Origin: Candidatus Eiseniibacteriota bacterium
GTDB lineage: Bacteria > Eisenbacteria > RBG-16-71-46 > DASYSL01
Assembly: GCA_036003365.1 (NCBI GenBank)
Contig: DASYSL010000004.1
Span: 1-60,695 of the forward strand
DNA: 60,695 nt
Direction: 5' to 3'
The position numbers and the translations under genes were made by a program. The notes beneath the pieces are model-generated. The model was not told the origin of the DNA and ran no database searches. It was given only the letters and a program-made list of their open reading frames with translations. The first letter of the stretch is position 1. Every line of letters starts with the position of its first letter. Positions 24,251-27,686 of this stretch are shown piece by piece.

Positions 24251-24976
24251 TTGAACAAGGTGGTGTCGAGCGCCAAGGCGGCCCTCAAGAAGGCCGGCGT
24301 CAAGGATGGCTGCACGATCCTGGCCGGCGGTTTCGGGTTGTGCGGCATTCCCGAGAATTTGATCGCTGCACTCGTCGAGCTCGGCGTGAAGGACCTGACC
24401 ATCGTCTCCAACAACGCGGGCGTGGACGACTTCGGGCTGGGCTTGCTGCTTGCCACGCGCCAGGTGAAGAAGATGATCTCCTCCTACGTGGGGGAGAACG
24501 CCACCTTCGAGCGCCAGTTCCTGGACGGCACGCTCCAGGTCGAGCTCGTGCCGCAGGGCACCCTGGCCGAGCGCATCCGCGCCGGCGGCGCGGGCATTCC
24601 TGCGTTCTTCACGCCCACGGGCGCCGGCACGCCCATCGCCGAAGGCAAGGAGACGCGCGTCATCGACGGCGTCGAGTGCATCCTGGAGAAGGGCATTCGC
24701 GGCGACATTGCCATCGTGCGGGCCTGGAAGGCGGATCATTACGGCAACCTCGTCTACCGCATGAGCGCGCGCAACTTCAATCCGATGATGGCCACGGCGG
24801 GTCGCGTGACCATCGCCGAGGTGGAGAAGATCGTGAGCCCCGGCAAGCTCGATCCCGACCACGTGCACACGCCCGGCGTGTACGTGAATCACCTCGTGCG
24901 CGCCAAGAACCTCGAGAAGCGGATCGAGCAGCGCACGGTGCGGCCGCGCGAGACCGCGGCCCAGGGAGCGGCATGA
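24251..24976 (+). CDS. scoA: 3-oxoacid CoA-transferase subunit A
   Basis: TTG start. Motifs: [19 protein letters not shown]. The length (241 aa) is typical. Confidence 0.9.
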
Positions 24977-27027
24977 GCCTCTCGGTGACCACGCCGATCC
25001 GCCCCGCGCGTCTGCGCCCGGGCGCCACGCAGGAGAAGATCGACGCGCGCTCGCGCGACGAGGCGCCCGCGGCCGTGGGCGGTCATCTCGTGCGCGGCAA
25101 GGCGCTCGTGTTCTGGGACGAGAAGGTTCCGGGCAAGAAGCGCGACGCCATCGACACCGACCAGATCACGCCCGCGGCCGATTGCGTCTCCGAGTCGCTC
25201 GCCACGCTCGATGAGCGCTGGAAGAAGGGCTCGTTCCGTCACCTCATGCCGGATTTCGTGCAGCGCGTGCAGGGCGGAGCCAACTTCCTCGTGGCCGGTG
25301 ACCGCTTCGCCATCGGCTCGTCGCGCGAGATGTCTCCGGCCGGGCTCAAGGGCGTGGCCGAAGAGGCCGGGCTCGAGATGGTCGTCGTGTGCGCCAACAA
25401 CATGGGTGACATCTTCCGCCGCAACTCCTTCAACTTGGGCTTGCAGGTCGTGCAGTGCCCTGAGGCGGTGGCCGACGCCCAGGACGGCGACGAGATGACT
25501 TTCGACACCGACACGCGCGCGCTCGCCAACCTGACGCGCGGCAAGACCTACGCGCCGGTGCCGCTCTCGCCCAAGGAAGACGAGATCCGGCGGAGCGGGG
25601 GCATCTTCGCCGTGGGGCGCCGCGAGTTCGCCGAGTCGGTGCGCAAAGCACCCGCCATCGAGTTCCCAGACGCCGCCACGGCGCGCCGGCTCACCACCAC
25701 CGAGCAGATCGTGTGGGCGCATCGCGTCGACAAGGACGCGCGCGTGGAGCCGGGGCAGACGCTTCGCGTGTACGCCGACTTGCTGCCCGCCTCGGACGGC
25801 ACGGCGCCGTTTTCGATCCACACCTTCAATCAGATCACGGGCGGCGACACCATCGAGCCGCGGCAGGCGGCGATCGCCAACGACCACTTTGTCTTCACCG
25901 GTAAGGAAGCGGACGACAAGCAGACCTCGATCGGCCGCGAATTCGCGCGGGCCATGGGCATCGAATCGCCGTATTACGCCACGCCCGGCGCCGGCATCTT
26001 CCACTTCTATTTTCCCGAGCAGGGGCTGATCGTCCCTGGCGGCTTCTACCCGGGCGCCGACTCGCACAGCCGGGCCTACGGCGCGTACGGTGCGGTGGGC
26101 ATCGGCGTCGGCTCCACCACGCTCGGCTTCGGATGGTCGACCGGCTACATCTATTTCACGCTCGCCAAGCAGCGCCGCGTGGTGATCCGCGGCCGCCTGC
26201 AGCCTTGGGTGACCGGCAAGGACATCGTGCTGGCGCTCCTCAAGCGCTGGGGCGCGAAGCAATCGGAAGGCATGAGCGTGGAGTTCGTCGATCGCGATCT
26301 GCAGTTGCCCATGCCGTACCGCAATACGATCGCCAACATGATGGCCGAGGCCGAAGCGCAGAACGGCATCTTCGCGCCCGACGACCTCACCTACGCATGG
26401 TTCGAGAAGCGCGGCATCGCCACGCCCTATCCGGCGCTCGCGCCCGGCGCCGACGCGGTGTACGCGGCCGACGAGGAGCTGGCGCTCGATGTCTTGGCAC
26501 CGATGATCGCGAAGCCGTTCAGCCCCGGGAATGCGTTCGCCGCCGAAGAAGTCGCGCGCGAGCGTCTCACCTTCCACAAAGCGATGATCGGCTCGTGCAC
26601 CAACGGCGGCTACGACGACCTCCTGCATGCCGCGCTCGTGCTGCGCGCCGCCATCGAGAAGGGCGTGAACAAGGTGGCCAAGGACGTCGAGTTTGTGGTG
26701 TTCCCTGGAAGCGGGCGCGTGAAGCGCGACATCGAGCTCGCCGACTCGCGTCTCGGCGGCCGCTCCATCGCCGACGTCTTCCGCTCGGTGGGGGGGAAGA
26801 TCCGCGAGTCGTGGTGCGGACCGTGCTTCGGGCAAGGGCCGGACGCCCTGGCGCCCGGCGAGCGCGCCATCACGAGCTTCAACCGCAACTGGCAAAACCG
26901 CATGGGCGTGGGTGGCGAGGGCTACCTCGCGAGCCCCGCGGTGGTCGCCGCCTCGGCGCTCGCCGGCTACATGGCGCCGCCCTCGGAGCTCGGCATCGCC
27001 TGGGACGCCGAGCGCTTCGGGATCTAG
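24973..27027 (+). CDS. Aconitase/IPM-isomerase family hydro-lyase, permuted fusion (LeuD-like swivel domain N-terminal, LeuC-like core C-terminal)
   Basis: ATG 24973 overlaps the scoA stop (ATGA). N-terminal part: [29 protein letters not shown]-terminal part: [46 protein letters not shown]. All three Fe-S cysteines are present. Confidence 0.85.
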
Positions 27028-27035
27028 GGGTCTCA

Positions 27036-27686
27036 TTGAGCCGCGATCTCATCGTCAAGCGCGCCGCACGCGAGCTGCGTGACGGCTACTACGTGAACCT
27101 GGGCATCGGCATGCCGACGCAGGTTGCCAACCACGTGCCCGACGGCATGACGGTCTTCTTCCAGTCGGAGAACGGCATCTTGGGCGTCGGGCCGTTTCCG
27201 TACGAAGGCGACGAGGATCCCGATCTCATCAACGCCGGCAAGCAGACGGTGACCGTGCTGCCGGGCGCGAGCTTCTTCTCGAGCGCCGACTCGTTCGCCA
27301 TGATCCGCGGCGGCCACATCGATCTTTCGATCCTGGGCGCCATGGAAGTGGACCAGCACGGCAACCTCGCCAACTGGATGATCCCCGGCAAGATGGTGAA
27401 GGGGATGGGCGGCGCCATGGACCTGGTCGCGGGCGCCCGGCGCGTCGTGGTCACCATGCAGCACGCGGCCAAGGACGGCTCTTCGAAGATCCTCGAGCAG
27501 TGCTCGCTGCCGCTCACCGGCAAGGGCGTGGTGGATCTCGTCATTACCGAGCTGGCGGTGATCGAGGTCACTCCCGGCGGGCTCCTCCTGCGCGAAACCG
27601 CGCCCGGCGTATCGGTCGAGCAAGTGCGCGCCGCCACCCAGGCGCCGCTCCAGATTCCGGATCACGTGGGGACGATGGAAGAGTAG
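27036..27686 (+). CDS. scoB: 3-oxoacid CoA-transferase subunit B
   Basis: TTG 27036. Motifs: [13 protein letters not shown] (catalytic glutamate motif), GMGGAMDLV. Confidence 0.9.

What the first reader, a model, noticed from the sequence alone, without database searches (positions are those of the whole stretch)
24251..27686. Domain-permuted aconitase-family hydro-lyase nested between the two CoA-transferase subunits
scoA (24251-24976) and scoB (27036-27686) are normally adjacent. Here a 684-aa gene is inserted between them and is translationally coupled to scoA (ATGA at 24973-24976).

The protein is a single chain with the LeuD-like swivel domain first ([15 protein letters not shown]) and the LeuC-like core second ([31 protein letters not shown]). 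This is the reverse of classical aconitase order and resembles the AcnB-type permutation. All three Fe-S ligand cysteines are kept.

The nesting implies a pathway that couples hydration or dehydration of a free hydroxy-/ene-di- or tricarboxylate to CoA transfer. Possible substrates are citramalate, mesaconate, itaconate or 2-methylmalate-type acids; the substrate is speculation.
Basis: partly seen in the sequence, partly recalled or inferred. Interest (0 to 1): 0.65.

Follow-up and report, generated by a model that had tools for sequence, protein, structure and literature searches.

The report
Orphan aconitase-like gene inside CoA-transferase operon
A real, intact iron-sulfur hydratase gene of a very large but never-studied branch of the aconitase superfamily sits between the two subunit genes of a CoA-transferase, but this placement is peculiar to one soil-bacterial lineage, so it says little about what the enzyme does.

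Summary
scoA (24251-24976), a 684-aa aconitase-superfamily gene (24973-27027) and scoB (27036-27686) lie as described, with an ATGA overlap. The swivel domain comes first, and all cluster ligands and catalytic residues are present.

The arrangement is not a chimera. Independent soil-metagenome contigs span both junctions. At least five further contigs (75-94% identical enzyme) confirm scoA-X-scoB, and a sixth is inferred.

The nesting is lineage-specific. In 160 of 160 other orthologue loci (72-77% identity; Acidobacteriota, Eisenbacteria and others) the gene stands alone, with no CoA-transferase and no conserved metabolic neighbour. One Eisenbacteria MAG keeps the MeaB-mutase-B12-scoA-scoB operon with scoA and scoB directly coupled (GTGA), and carries its orthologue on another contig.

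The enzyme belongs to a huge, very conserved, uncharacterised subfamily. It reaches no NCBIfam cut-off and forms its own clade. It is not canonical LeuCD, which coexists beside it in two loci. Its pocket signature differs from aconitase, IPMI and homoaconitase.

Best reading: a housekeeping [4Fe-4S] hydro-lyase of unknown substrate, relocated into the scoAB operon. Pathway coupling to CoA transfer is weakly supported.

The 4-1-2-3 domain order is already known from AcnB and AcnX. Interest is moderate.

The parts
20964..22049 (+). MeaB-type G-protein chaperone of the mutase. The start is uncertain: TTG at 20964 or TTG at 21108. It is the first gene of the apparent operon.
   Evidence: Pfam MeaB 317 bits. 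TIGR00750 337 bits, cut-off 240.75. Sequence read. A promoter-like site lies at 20925-20953; this is a consensus match only.
22046..23794 (+). Methylmalonyl-CoA-mutase-type large (substrate-binding) subunit, split form.
   Evidence: Pfam MM_CoA_mutase 740 bits. TIGR00641 763 bits, cut-off 303.8.
23806..24216 (+). B12-binding small subunit of the mutase. TTG start with AGGAGGA just upstream.
   Evidence: Pfam B12-binding 98 bits. TIGR00640 174 bits, cut-off 57.45. Sequence read.
24251..24976 (+). scoA: class I 3-oxoacid CoA-transferase subunit A (241 aa).
   Evidence: PF01144 254 bits. TIGR02429 277 bits, cut-off 128.5.
24973..24976 (+). ATGA overlap: the stop of scoA and the start of the aconitase-like gene (translational coupling).
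   Evidence: Read directly. A 4-nt (GTGA) or 1-nt overlap is kept in nested loci L081, L082, L087 and L169.
24973..27027 (+). 684-aa aconitase-superfamily [4Fe-4S] hydro-lyase of an uncharacterised subfamily. Layout: N-terminal extension (aa 1-~55), swivel/LeuD-like domain (~56-222), linker, then LeuC-like domains 1-3 (~240-675).
   Evidence: Invariant residues: D304/H305, H344, D363/S364/H365, N455/E459, C542, C615, C618, N637/R638, R643, S116/S117/R118.
25147..25215 (+). Codons for the substrate-specificity loop of the swivel domain (aa 59-81: [23 protein letters not shown]). D70-C71-V72-S73 replaces YLVY (IPMI) or YLRT (homoaconitase).
   Evidence: HMMER alignments to 3vba and 2pkp. Small-domain alignment. 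Invariance in A1.
27036..27686 (+). scoB: CoA-transferase subunit B (216 aa), TTG start 8 nt after the preceding stop. It carries the SENG motif ([10 protein letters not shown]).
   Evidence: PF01144 174 bits. TIGR02428 340 bits, cut-off 243.55. Sequence read.
31871..38649 (+). Acyl-CoA dehydrogenase, thiolase, 3-hydroxyacyl-CoA dehydrogenase, two further acyl-CoA dehydrogenases and DUF362. This short-chain acyl-CoA block also follows the nest in L082, L087 and L169.

Best explanation
The middle gene encodes an orthologue of a very large, strongly conserved, experimentally uncharacterised subfamily of the aconitase superfamily.

Inferred mechanism, from complete conservation of the catalytic set:
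- A cubane [4Fe-4S] cluster is held by C542, C615 and C618.
- Its fourth iron binds the hydroxyl and carboxylate of a free 2-hydroxy (malate-type) di- or tricarboxylic acid.
- S116, the Ser642 equivalent on the N-terminal swivel domain, abstracts the proton.
- The enzyme dehydrates and rehydrates the substrate through an ene-acid intermediate, as isopropylmalate isomerase and aconitase do.

The substrate is unknown. The pocket signature fits none of aconitase, IPMI or homoaconitase: S274 in place of Gln72 (Acn) or the N/H of LeuC-type proteins, H344-F-Y, DSH-S-R367-A-Y, NRNW, and the loop D70-C71-V72-S73.

In most genomes the gene is free-standing and looks like a housekeeping gene. In the lineage of this window (probably Eisenbacteria-like soil bacteria) it lies in the junction of the translationally coupled scoA-scoB pair of a MeaB / methylmalonyl-CoA mutase / CoA-transferase operon. 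I infer that it was relocated there. It is now co-transcribed and start-stop coupled to scoA.

The nesting gives co-expression with short-chain acyl-CoA catabolism. It does not define the enzyme's chemistry, and no direct metabolic hand-over to the CoA-transferase is required.

Shown: the gene structure, conservation, distribution and synteny. Inferred: the catalysis, the direction of the relocation, and co-transcription.
For: Catalytic completeness and fold:
-.

Separate subfamily:
- No NCBIfam model reaches its cut-off. The best is PRK00402 at 299.5 against 385. Most of the nearest-scoring relatives scanned do pass it.
- At 50% clustering the family collapses to one full-length representative plus two remote sisters at 47% and 42%.
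- An NJ tree puts the family and its sisters apart from LEU2-type LeuC, bacterial LeuC, PRK07229 aconitase and other D-to-C fusions.

Size and conservation:
- More than 5,400 and more than 6,500 90%-clusters were hit.
- The mean column identity of 27 sequences is 81%. Loci of 72-77% identity come from several phyla.

Not LeuCD:
- Canonical leuC (TIGR00170 694, cut-off 560) and leuD (192, cut-off 116) lie 2.4 kb from the orthologue in L161 and L151.

Free-standing elsewhere:
- No scoA, scoB or mutase is found in 80 genome loci plus 80 metagenome loci.
- Neighbours vary: kinase 11/64, ApaG 9/64, LMF1 8/60.
- P0057 and P0058 are free-standing.

Nest real but clade-limited:
- P0003 contig, L081, L082, L087, L169 and L170. 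Start-stop overlap is kept in every junction checked.

Un-nested sister operon:
- L168 (same MAG as L005), L171 and L173 have MeaB-MCM-B12-FMN_red-scoA-scoB with a 4-nt overlap of the called scoA and scoB (GTGA read in L168).
Against: - No biochemical datum exists for any member, so catalysis and substrate class are inferred from homology only.
- The nest persists in lineages that have diverged to 75-79% in a very slowly evolving protein, always with tight coupling to scoA. That could reflect selection for a functional link.
- The nest is the only metabolically informative context found for the whole family.
- Nest-bearing sequences are not resolved as one clade (17/200 NJ bootstraps). The number and direction of events are therefore uncertain.
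- I could not test whether genomes with this gene lack another aconitase.
Confidence: 0.6

Rival explanations
1. Functional module. The hydro-lyase makes or consumes a free C4-C6 hydroxy or ene dicarboxylate, such as citramalate, citraconate, mesaconate, itaconate or methylmalate. The ScoAB-type transferase activates it with succinyl-CoA, which the adjacent mutase supplies. The nest reflects a stoichiometric three-protein pathway unit.
For: - The nest is kept with start-stop overlap in at least six independent contigs down to about 75% identity.
- The upstream mutase makes succinyl-CoA, the usual CoA donor.
- The best structural and sequence relatives are the M. jannaschii isopropylmalate/citramalate isomerase subunits.
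Against: - 160/160 other orthologue loci lack any CoA-transferase.
- A sister MAG has the operon without the gene and carries the gene elsewhere.
- All invariant catalytic and signature residues are shared by nested and other orthologues.
- The scanned parts of the window hold no citramalyl-CoA lyase, itaconyl-CoA hydratase or enoyl-CoA hydratase domain. Its acyl-CoA genes are ACAD, thiolase and HCDH.
- ScoA and ScoB pass the thresholds of the 3-oxoacid family.
Confidence: 0.15
2. It is the working citric-acid-cycle aconitase (citrate/isocitrate) of these lineages: a third permuted aconitase type beside AcnB. It is placed with genes that feed acetyl-CoA and succinate into the cycle.
For: - It behaves like a core gene: apparently single-copy, free-standing and extremely conserved.
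- It shares its topology with AcnB.
- Its large domain scores about as well on the PRK07229 aconitase model (251 bits) as on the LeuC models.
- An invariant R367 next to the DSH motif, and R82/K84 in a family-specific insertion, could supply the missing positive charge. This is speculation.
Against: - The Gln72 position is Ser.
- The PRK07229-type aconitase representative has Q there and an Arg in the swivel loop (AYRSN). This family has no Arg in the aligned loop.
- All aconitase models are far below their cut-offs.
- No citrate synthase or isocitrate dehydrogenase neighbour appears among the neighbours scanned.
Confidence: 0.12
3. It is a dedicated (R)-citramalate / 2-alkylmalate isomerase of amino-acid biosynthesis. 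It would serve the citramalate route to isoleucine, or act as a second IPMI working beside canonical LeuCD.
For: - The closest solved structures for both domains are the M. jannaschii IPM/citramalate isomerase subunits.
- V72 aligns with the Val of the IPMI YLVY loop.
- Bulky F306, F345, Y346 and W640 could shrink the pocket for a small substituent. This is inference.
- JGI names the gene 3-isopropylmalate/(R)-2-methylmalate dehydratase. That is an automatic annotation.
Against: - It fails every LeuC, LeuD and HacA cut-off.
- The loop Tyr-Leu is replaced by Asp-Cys.
- No leuA/cimA-, leuB- or ilv-type family appears among the immediate neighbours scanned, and no neighbour is conserved beyond 14 of 80 loci.
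- Canonical LeuCD, which normally also handles citramalate, coexists with it.
Confidence: 0.1
4. It is mainly a regulatory or moonlighting Fe-S protein (an apo-form RNA or protein binder, like IRP1, AcnA and AcnB), not a metabolic enzyme.
For: - Surface-wide conservation is unusually high: 81% mean column identity.
- There is a conserved N-terminal P-A-R-L-K-P-G peptide of unknown role.
- Frequent neighbours are kinases and ApaG rather than metabolic enzymes.
Against: - Every catalytic residue is invariant, which argues for retained catalysis.
- No RNA element was found nearby.
- Nothing in the data points to binding.
Confidence: 0.03

Closest known systems
Archaeal-type isopropylmalate/citramalate isomerase (M. 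jannaschii MJ0499 + MJ1277; PDB 4kp1, 4nqy, 3vba)
   Same: - Best sequence and fold match for both parts: large subunit E 1.5e-48, TM 0.81; small subunit E 1e-16.
- Same cluster ligands, Asp-His pairs, NRN..R motif and GSSRE catalytic serine.
   Different: - This protein is one chain with the small subunit first, about 28% identical.
- The specificity loop is DCVS rather than YLVY, with a 4-residue insertion.
- The LeuC His/Asn position is Ser, HQV becomes HFY, and DSHTCT becomes DSHSRA.
- It fails TIGR02086 and TIGR02087 and the other cut-offs.
E. coli aconitase B (PDB 1l5j)
   Same: - Same order of domains (4-linker-1-2-3).
- Widest structural superposition: TMq 0.68 over 750 columns.
- PMC8184944 lists this order for AcnB and AcnX type I.
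   Different: - 17% identity.
- Pfam and NCBIfam report nothing AcnB-specific in its N-terminal part, and the swivel matches PF00694.
- TIGR00117 gives 47 bits against a cut-off of 1287.
- The tree points to an independent LeuD/LeuC-type fusion.
Methanogen/Thermus-type homoaconitase HacAB (PDB 4kp2, 2pkp)
   Same: Comparable similarity: E 2e-45 for the large part and 4e-07 for the small part.
   Different: - The Arg of the YLRT loop that recognises the distal carboxylate is Val here.
- Scores are below the hacA_fam, HacA_Meth and HacB cut-offs.
PRK07229 / TIGR01342 IPMI-like single-chain aconitase
   Same: Single chain of about 650 aa from the same deep branch. The large domain scores 251 bits.
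   Different: - That family has the order 1-2-3-4, Gln at the Gln72 position, and an Arg in the swivel loop (representative P0244).
- The cut-off of 612 bits is not reached.
Other LeuD-LeuC (small-first) fusions, e.g. P0234, P0238 and the Gottesmanbacteria protein P0286/KKS46717.1
   Same: Same small-first single-chain layout.
   Different: - Only 32-35% identical.
- P0234 and P0238 pass the PRK00402 subfamily cut-off.
- They keep canonical or near-canonical (A)R-Y-C/L type loops and branch among LeuC-like proteins. The fusion therefore arose more than once.
Succinyl-CoA:3-oxoacid CoA-transferase ScoAB / PcaIJ / AtoDA (class I)
   Same: The flanking genes pass the TIGR02429 and TIGR02428 cut-offs and carry the SENG glutamate motif.
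   Different: The two subunit genes are normally adjacent and coupled, as in L168, L171 and L173. Here a 2.05-kb gene separates them.

Membership tests
Aconitase superfamily ([4Fe-4S] hydro-lyases) | Three cysteine ligands of the cluster (Cys358/421/424 of pig mitochondrial aconitase) | tested here: met
   C542 (IGSCTNG), C615 and C618 (WCGPCFG) are invariant in 27 sequences.
Aconitase superfamily ([4Fe-4S] hydro-lyases) | Catalytic Ser-Ser-Arg on domain 4, the three Asp/Glu-His pairs, and the Asn-Arg...Arg carboxylate binders | tested here: met
   All are invariant: S116-S117-R118; D304-H305; H344; D363-S364-H365; N455/E459; N637-R638; R643.
Aconitase superfamily ([4Fe-4S] hydro-lyases) | Four-domain fold with a swivel domain | tested here: met
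   AF2 model pLDDT 78.7, pTM 0.82. Foldseek hits 4kp1, 4kp2, 1l5j and 1c96 at probability 1.00. Pfam PF00694 plus PF00330.
Aconitase superfamily ([4Fe-4S] hydro-lyases) | Actual binding of an Fe-S cluster and hydro-lyase activity | not testable with these tools
   Needs anaerobic purification, spectroscopy and assays.
Isopropylmalate isomerase LeuCD | Score above the curated equivalog or subfamily cut-offs | tested here: not met
   TIGR02083 268 vs 610.65; TIGR00170 157 vs 560.25; PRK05478 190 vs 510; TIGR02084 68 vs 245.85; PRK00402 299.5 vs 385.
Isopropylmalate isomerase LeuCD | Small-subunit specificity loop Y-L-V-(Y/M), or the bacterial F/W-L type | tested here: not met
   The loop is A-A-D-C-V-S-E-S. 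Only the Val is shared.
Isopropylmalate isomerase LeuCD | It is the genome's IPMI and is linked to leuA or leuB | tested here: not met
   Canonical leuC and leuD coexist 2.4 kb away in L161 and L151. No leu-pathway family appears among the 124 immediate neighbours scanned, and no neighbour is conserved beyond 14 of 80 loci.
Aconitase proper (AcnA / mAcn / PRK07229) | Gln72 and a swivel-loop Arg580 equivalent for the third carboxylate | tested here: not met
   The position is S274, where the PRK07229 representative has Q. There is no Arg in the aligned loop, where P0244 has AYRSN. Nearby R82, K84 and R367 leave a compensating charge possible.
Aconitase proper (AcnA / mAcn / PRK07229) | Curated model cut-offs | tested here: not met
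   PRK07229 251 vs 612; TIGR01340 111 vs 825; TIGR01341 50.5 vs 945.
Aconitase B | Domain order 4-1-2-3 | tested here: met
   Pfam order. Foldseek 1l5j TMq 0.68 over 750 columns.
Aconitase B | N-terminal HEAT-like domain, AcnB-type swivel (PF06434), and the TIGR00117 cut-off | tested here: not met
   Pfam reports only PF00694 and PF00330. TIGR00117 46.6 vs 1287; PRK09238 75 vs 782.
Homoaconitase HacAB | Arg in the YLRT loop, and the model cut-offs | tested here: not met
   Val at that position. hacA_fam 262 vs 385.7; HacA_Meth 200 vs 550; HacB models 45-53 vs 230.
Class I 3-oxoacid CoA-transferase (ScoAB/PcaIJ), flanking genes | Subunit A and B family models above cut-off, and the catalytic Glu in the (S)ENG motif of subunit B | tested here: met
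   TIGR02429 277 vs 128.5; TIGR02428 340 vs 243.55. [10 protein letters not shown] is read. The role of the Glu comes from established knowledge of the family.
Class I 3-oxoacid CoA-transferase (ScoAB/PcaIJ), flanking genes | Adjacent, coupled A and B genes | tested here: not met
   They are separated by the 2,055-bp gene here and in the other nested loci. They are adjacent with a 4-nt overlap in L168, L171 and L173.

The most novel reading that the evidence does not exclude
The subfamily catalyses a reaction not yet assigned to the aconitase superfamily: a new hydroxy-acid substrate. It would fill an unrecognised core step in Acidobacteriota, Eisenbacteria and allied soil phyla. In the nested lineage it would work as a physical or metabolic unit with the succinyl-CoA-dependent transferase and the B12 mutase, defining a new free-acid/CoA-ester shuttle for C4-C6 dicarboxylates.
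Probability: 0.12. Interest if true: 0.75.

Novelty: new variant of a known kind. Interest (0 to 1): 0.45.

Why it matters
- Thousands of soil and sediment genomes carry this gene under automatic names such as 'leuC' or 'aconitase family protein'. It passes none of the curated family cut-offs and coexists with true LeuCD. Metabolic reconstructions of Acidobacteriota and Eisenbacteria may therefore be mis-assigning a very conserved, probably important enzyme.
- Finding its substrate would add a branch to a textbook enzyme superfamily.
- The nesting is a clean natural example of a gene inserted between two translationally coupled subunit genes with coupling preserved. It is also a caution against reading function from an operon context that holds in only one lineage.

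Tried and rejected
Neighbourhood analysis:
- All-vs-all clustering of ORFs around 80 orthologue loci looked for conserved neighbours. Nothing occurred in more than 14 of 80 loci. The top clusters were alternative-frame ORFs of the gene itself.
- A Pfam census of the immediate upstream and downstream genes found only scattered kinase, ApaG, M28 peptidase, LMF1 and TerC. No metabolic partner appeared.

Relatives:
- The remote sister P0123 was used as a query to find a better-annotated branch. It is a singleton whose nearest relatives are the main family. Its own context (Cys_Met_Meta_PP and unknowns) is uninformative.

Signals and literature:
- The Rfam and tRNA scans of the window found nothing.
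- The promoter and terminator scan found nothing above shuffle expectation that matters.
- Five literature searches found no characterised member. The only useful paper is PMC8184944, on domain orders.

Phylogeny of the nest:
- NJ bootstrap was used to decide between one and several nesting events. It is unresolved: nest monophyly in 17/200 replicates, the main free-standing clade in 131/200.

Unresolved or failed checks:
- L174 (scoB 89%, same downstream synteny) shows no scoA or acn in the 1 kb before scoB. It has unrelated low-GC DNA at a contig end, so I left it unresolved.
- The first read-laying run failed on a filter.

Readings rejected:
- Assembly chimera, canonical LeuCD fusion, and AcnB orthologue. 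Reasons are in the main text.

- Checking whether genomes with this gene lack AcnA or AcnB.
- Reading side-chain geometry from the model, because coordinates are not exposed.

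
Full report
**1. The observation**

- scoA runs 24251-24976, with a TTG start preceded by GGAGG.
- A 684-codon ORF starts at the ATG of 24973. That ATG overlaps the scoA stop, giving ATGA at 24973-24976. The ORF ends at 27027.
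- scoB starts at TTG 27036, eight bases later, and ends at 27686.

Family scans agree with the reading.
- Pfam finds CoA_trans in both flanking products. In the middle product it finds Aconitase_C (aa 94-162) before Aconitase (aa 315-665).
- NCBIfam puts ScoA and ScoB above the cut-offs of the 3-oxoacid CoA-transferase subunit families.
- It matches LeuD-type models to aa 58-214 and LeuC-type models to aa 241-672 of the middle product.

The arrangement is not an assembly chimera.
- In an independent soil run, unitig-level contigs with no mismatch span both junctions.
- A variant contig from another study spans the scoA junction.

**2. What the protein is**

The closest solved structures are the two subunits of the Methanocaldococcus jannaschii isopropylmalate/citramalate isomerase.
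- The large subunit 4kp1 matches aa 253-673 at E 1.5e-48.
- The small subunit 3vba matches aa 59-222 at E about 1e-16.
- Homoaconitase and then mitochondrial aconitase follow.

An AlphaFold2 model (pLDDT 78.7, pTM 0.82) finds the same proteins.
- The widest superposition is on E. coli aconitase B (TMq 0.68 over 750 columns, 17% identity). AcnB has the same swivel-first order.
- That order (4-linker-1-2-3) is a recognised architectural variant of the superfamily, listed for AcnB and AcnX type I in PMC8184944. The permutation itself is therefore not new.
- By sequence the protein is not an AcnB relative. TIGR00117 gives 47 bits against a cut-off of 1287, and Pfam reports only PF00694 and PF00330.

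All residues that define catalysis in the superfamily are invariant in an alignment of 27 homologues:
- D304-H305
- H344
- D363-S364-H365
- N455/E459
- the three cysteines
- N637-R638 and R643
- on the swivel domain, S116-S117-R118

**3. A separate, very large, uncharacterised subfamily**

No NCBIfam model reaches its cut-off.
- The best is the broad PRK00402 'aconitase/IPMI large subunit family', at 299.5 bits against 385.
- Most of the nearest-scoring relatives I scanned do pass it.

The family is tight and large.
- A search of 1.84 billion 50%-identity representatives collapses it to one full-length representative (74% identical).
- It also finds two remote sisters with the same layout, at 47% and 42%.
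- In an NJ tree of the large domain, these form a clade apart from LEU2-type LeuC, bacterial LeuC, PRK07229-type aconitase and the other small-first fusions. The fusion therefore arose independently here.
- More than 5,400 and more than 6,500 90%-identity clusters were hit.
- Mean column identity is 81% for 27 aligned homologues. Loci of 72-77% identity carry Acidobacteriota, Vicinamibacterales, Thermoanaerobaculia, Blastocatellia, Eisenbacteria and Krumholzibacteriia labels.
- Sources call it only 'aconitase family protein', or give an automatic leuC name.
- Five literature searches found no characterised member.

Its pocket signature is its own.
- Ser replaces Gln72 of aconitase. LeuC has Asn or His at that position.
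- H-F-Y stands where aconitase has H-Q-I and LeuC has H-V-L.
- DSH-S-R-A-Y stands where the others have DSHTPH or DSHTCT.
- NRNW replaces NRNF.
- The swivel loop A-A-D-C-V-S-E-S stands where IPMI has YLVY, homoaconitase has YLRT and the PRK07229 aconitase has an Arg-containing loop.
- There are family-specific insertions and a conserved N-terminal P-A-R-L-K-P-G peptide.

It is not the leucine-pathway enzyme. In two metagenome loci, canonical leuC (694 bits, cut-off 560) and leuD (192 bits, cut-off 116) lie 2.4 kb from the orthologue.

**4. The nesting**

The same scoA-X-scoB order occurs on several other contigs.
- It is on the contigs of P0003 (94% identical enzyme), L081 (79%), L082 (78%), L087 (76%) and L169/L170 (75%).
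- Usually it follows MeaB, the mutase and the B12 subunit. An acyl-CoA dehydrogenase, thiolase and hydroxyacyl-CoA dehydrogenase block follows it.
- The contig of P0004 probably carries it too. This is inferred from matching contig lengths.
- In the four other nested loci whose junctions I read, the scoA stop overlaps the start of the middle gene by 4 or 1 nt. A spacer of 8-33 nt precedes scoB.

The nest is confined to these lineages.
- In 80 species-representative genomes and 80 metagenome contigs carrying orthologues of 72-77% identity, tblastn finds no scoA, scoB or mutase within 5-6 kb.
- Neighbours there vary and are not metabolic.
- Two further orthologues are free-standing.

The most telling case is one Eisenbacteria MAG (WGS prefix JBOHUC01).
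- Contig 13 carries MeaB-mutase-B12-FMN reductase-scoA-scoB, with scoA and scoB overlapping in GTGA.
- Contig 87 carries the aconitase-like orthologue.
- Two more contigs show the same un-nested operon.
- Their ScoB proteins (81-86% identical to the window's) are as close to the window as those of nested loci (79-91%).
- The best named ScoB hits are Eisenbacteria, so the window probably comes from that group or near it.

A/B adjacency is the general rule for this transferase family. I therefore infer that the aconitase-like gene moved into the junction.

The phylogeny does not settle whether this happened once.
- The nested sequences and one free-standing sequence fall outside a moderately supported clade (131/200) of all other free-standing ones.
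- Nest monophyly is recovered in only 17/200 replicates.

**5. What follows for function**

All invariant catalytic and signature residues are shared by nested and other orthologues. The enzyme therefore does the same chemistry with or without the transferase genes beside it.

The parts of the window I scanned show no lyase or hydratase domain that a citramalate, itaconate or mesaconate CoA route would need.
- Its acyl-CoA genes are dehydrogenases, a thiolase and a hydroxyacyl-CoA dehydrogenase.
- That set fits ordinary acetoacetate and short-chain acyl-CoA metabolism around a succinyl-CoA-dependent transferase.

My best explanation is a housekeeping [4Fe-4S] hydro-lyase/isomerase acting on a free malate-type hydroxy acid of unknown identity. 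In one lineage it is expressed from the mutase/transferase operon. Catalysis is inferred from homology, and nothing here measures it.

The rivals are these, with evidence and refuting results in their own sections:
- True metabolic coupling to the transferase (0.15).
- A third, permuted citric-acid-cycle aconitase (0.12).
- A dedicated citramalate/alkylmalate isomerase (0.10).
- A mainly regulatory protein (0.03).

**6. Verdict**

- The domain order is a known variant.
- The interpretation that nesting reveals the pathway is weak.
- What is worth following is the subfamily itself: very abundant, very conserved, outside all curated families, annotated by default as leuC, and without a known substrate.
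- Novelty: a new variant of a known kind.
- Interest: moderate (0.45).

Noticed in passing
window 43511-45904: Adjacent genes with FGE-sulfatase + DinB_2 domains (EgtB-like) and Methyltransf_33 (EgtD-like). This is the usual ergothioneine biosynthesis pair.
   Followed up: no
window 27771-28976; 50257-52950; 56216-57235: An NHL-repeat beta-propeller protein with a type IX secretion C-terminal sorting domain lies directly after scoB. Further on are a CarboxypepD_reg TonB-dependent receptor and a PorV-like protein. This fits an FCB-group (Eisenbacteria-like) origin, which is inference.
   Followed up: partly
L161 8812-10785 (minus strand); also L151: Canonical bacterial leuC and leuD lie 2.4 kb from the aconitase-like orthologue, next to an F420-dependent LLM oxidoreductase and a MocR-like aminotransferase-domain gene.
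   Followed up: yes
L168, L171, L173: The un-nested versions of the operon carry an FMN_red (NADPH-dependent FMN reductase-like) gene between the B12 subunit and scoA. In two of them a methyltransferase lies between the mutase and the B12 subunit. Neither gene is in the window's version.
   Followed up: no
L174 1-1071: This contig has a scoB 89% identical to the window's and the same downstream genes. It has no scoA or aconitase-like gene in the 1 kb before scoB. Instead there is lower-GC unrelated DNA and a roughly 35-nt degenerate copy of the scoB 5' region (941-975). The cause could be a rearrangement, a mobile-element scar or a contig-end artefact.
   Followed up: partly
window 24792-27090 (runs X1, X2): A few soil-metagenome contigs join the 3' part of scoA directly to the 5' part of scoB, skipping 2.15-2.28 kb. 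The matching sides are short (23-27 nt). These are probably un-nested relatives living in the same soil. Depth spikes of several hundred- to over a thousand-fold at 27153-27485 show that many organisms share this conserved scoB stretch.
   Followed up: no
L001-L080, about 4 kb downstream of the orthologue: A SufB-like Fe-S assembly gene lies about 4 kb downstream in 14 of 80 loci. A 4Fe-4S ferredoxin is divergently adjacent in L084 and L085. The association may be chance.
   Followed up: no
window 24889-27036 (minus strand) and other long antisense ORFs: The 67% GC sequence produces very long spurious ORFs opposite real genes, e.g. 715 aa antisense to the aconitase-like gene. A simple GC3-based gene caller picked the antisense frame of scoB.
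   Followed up: no
window 41468-43372 (minus strand): A 634-aa acyl-CoA dehydrogenase with an ACAD9/ACADV C-terminal domain (very-long-chain type) adds to four other ACAD genes within 12 kb.
   Followed up: no
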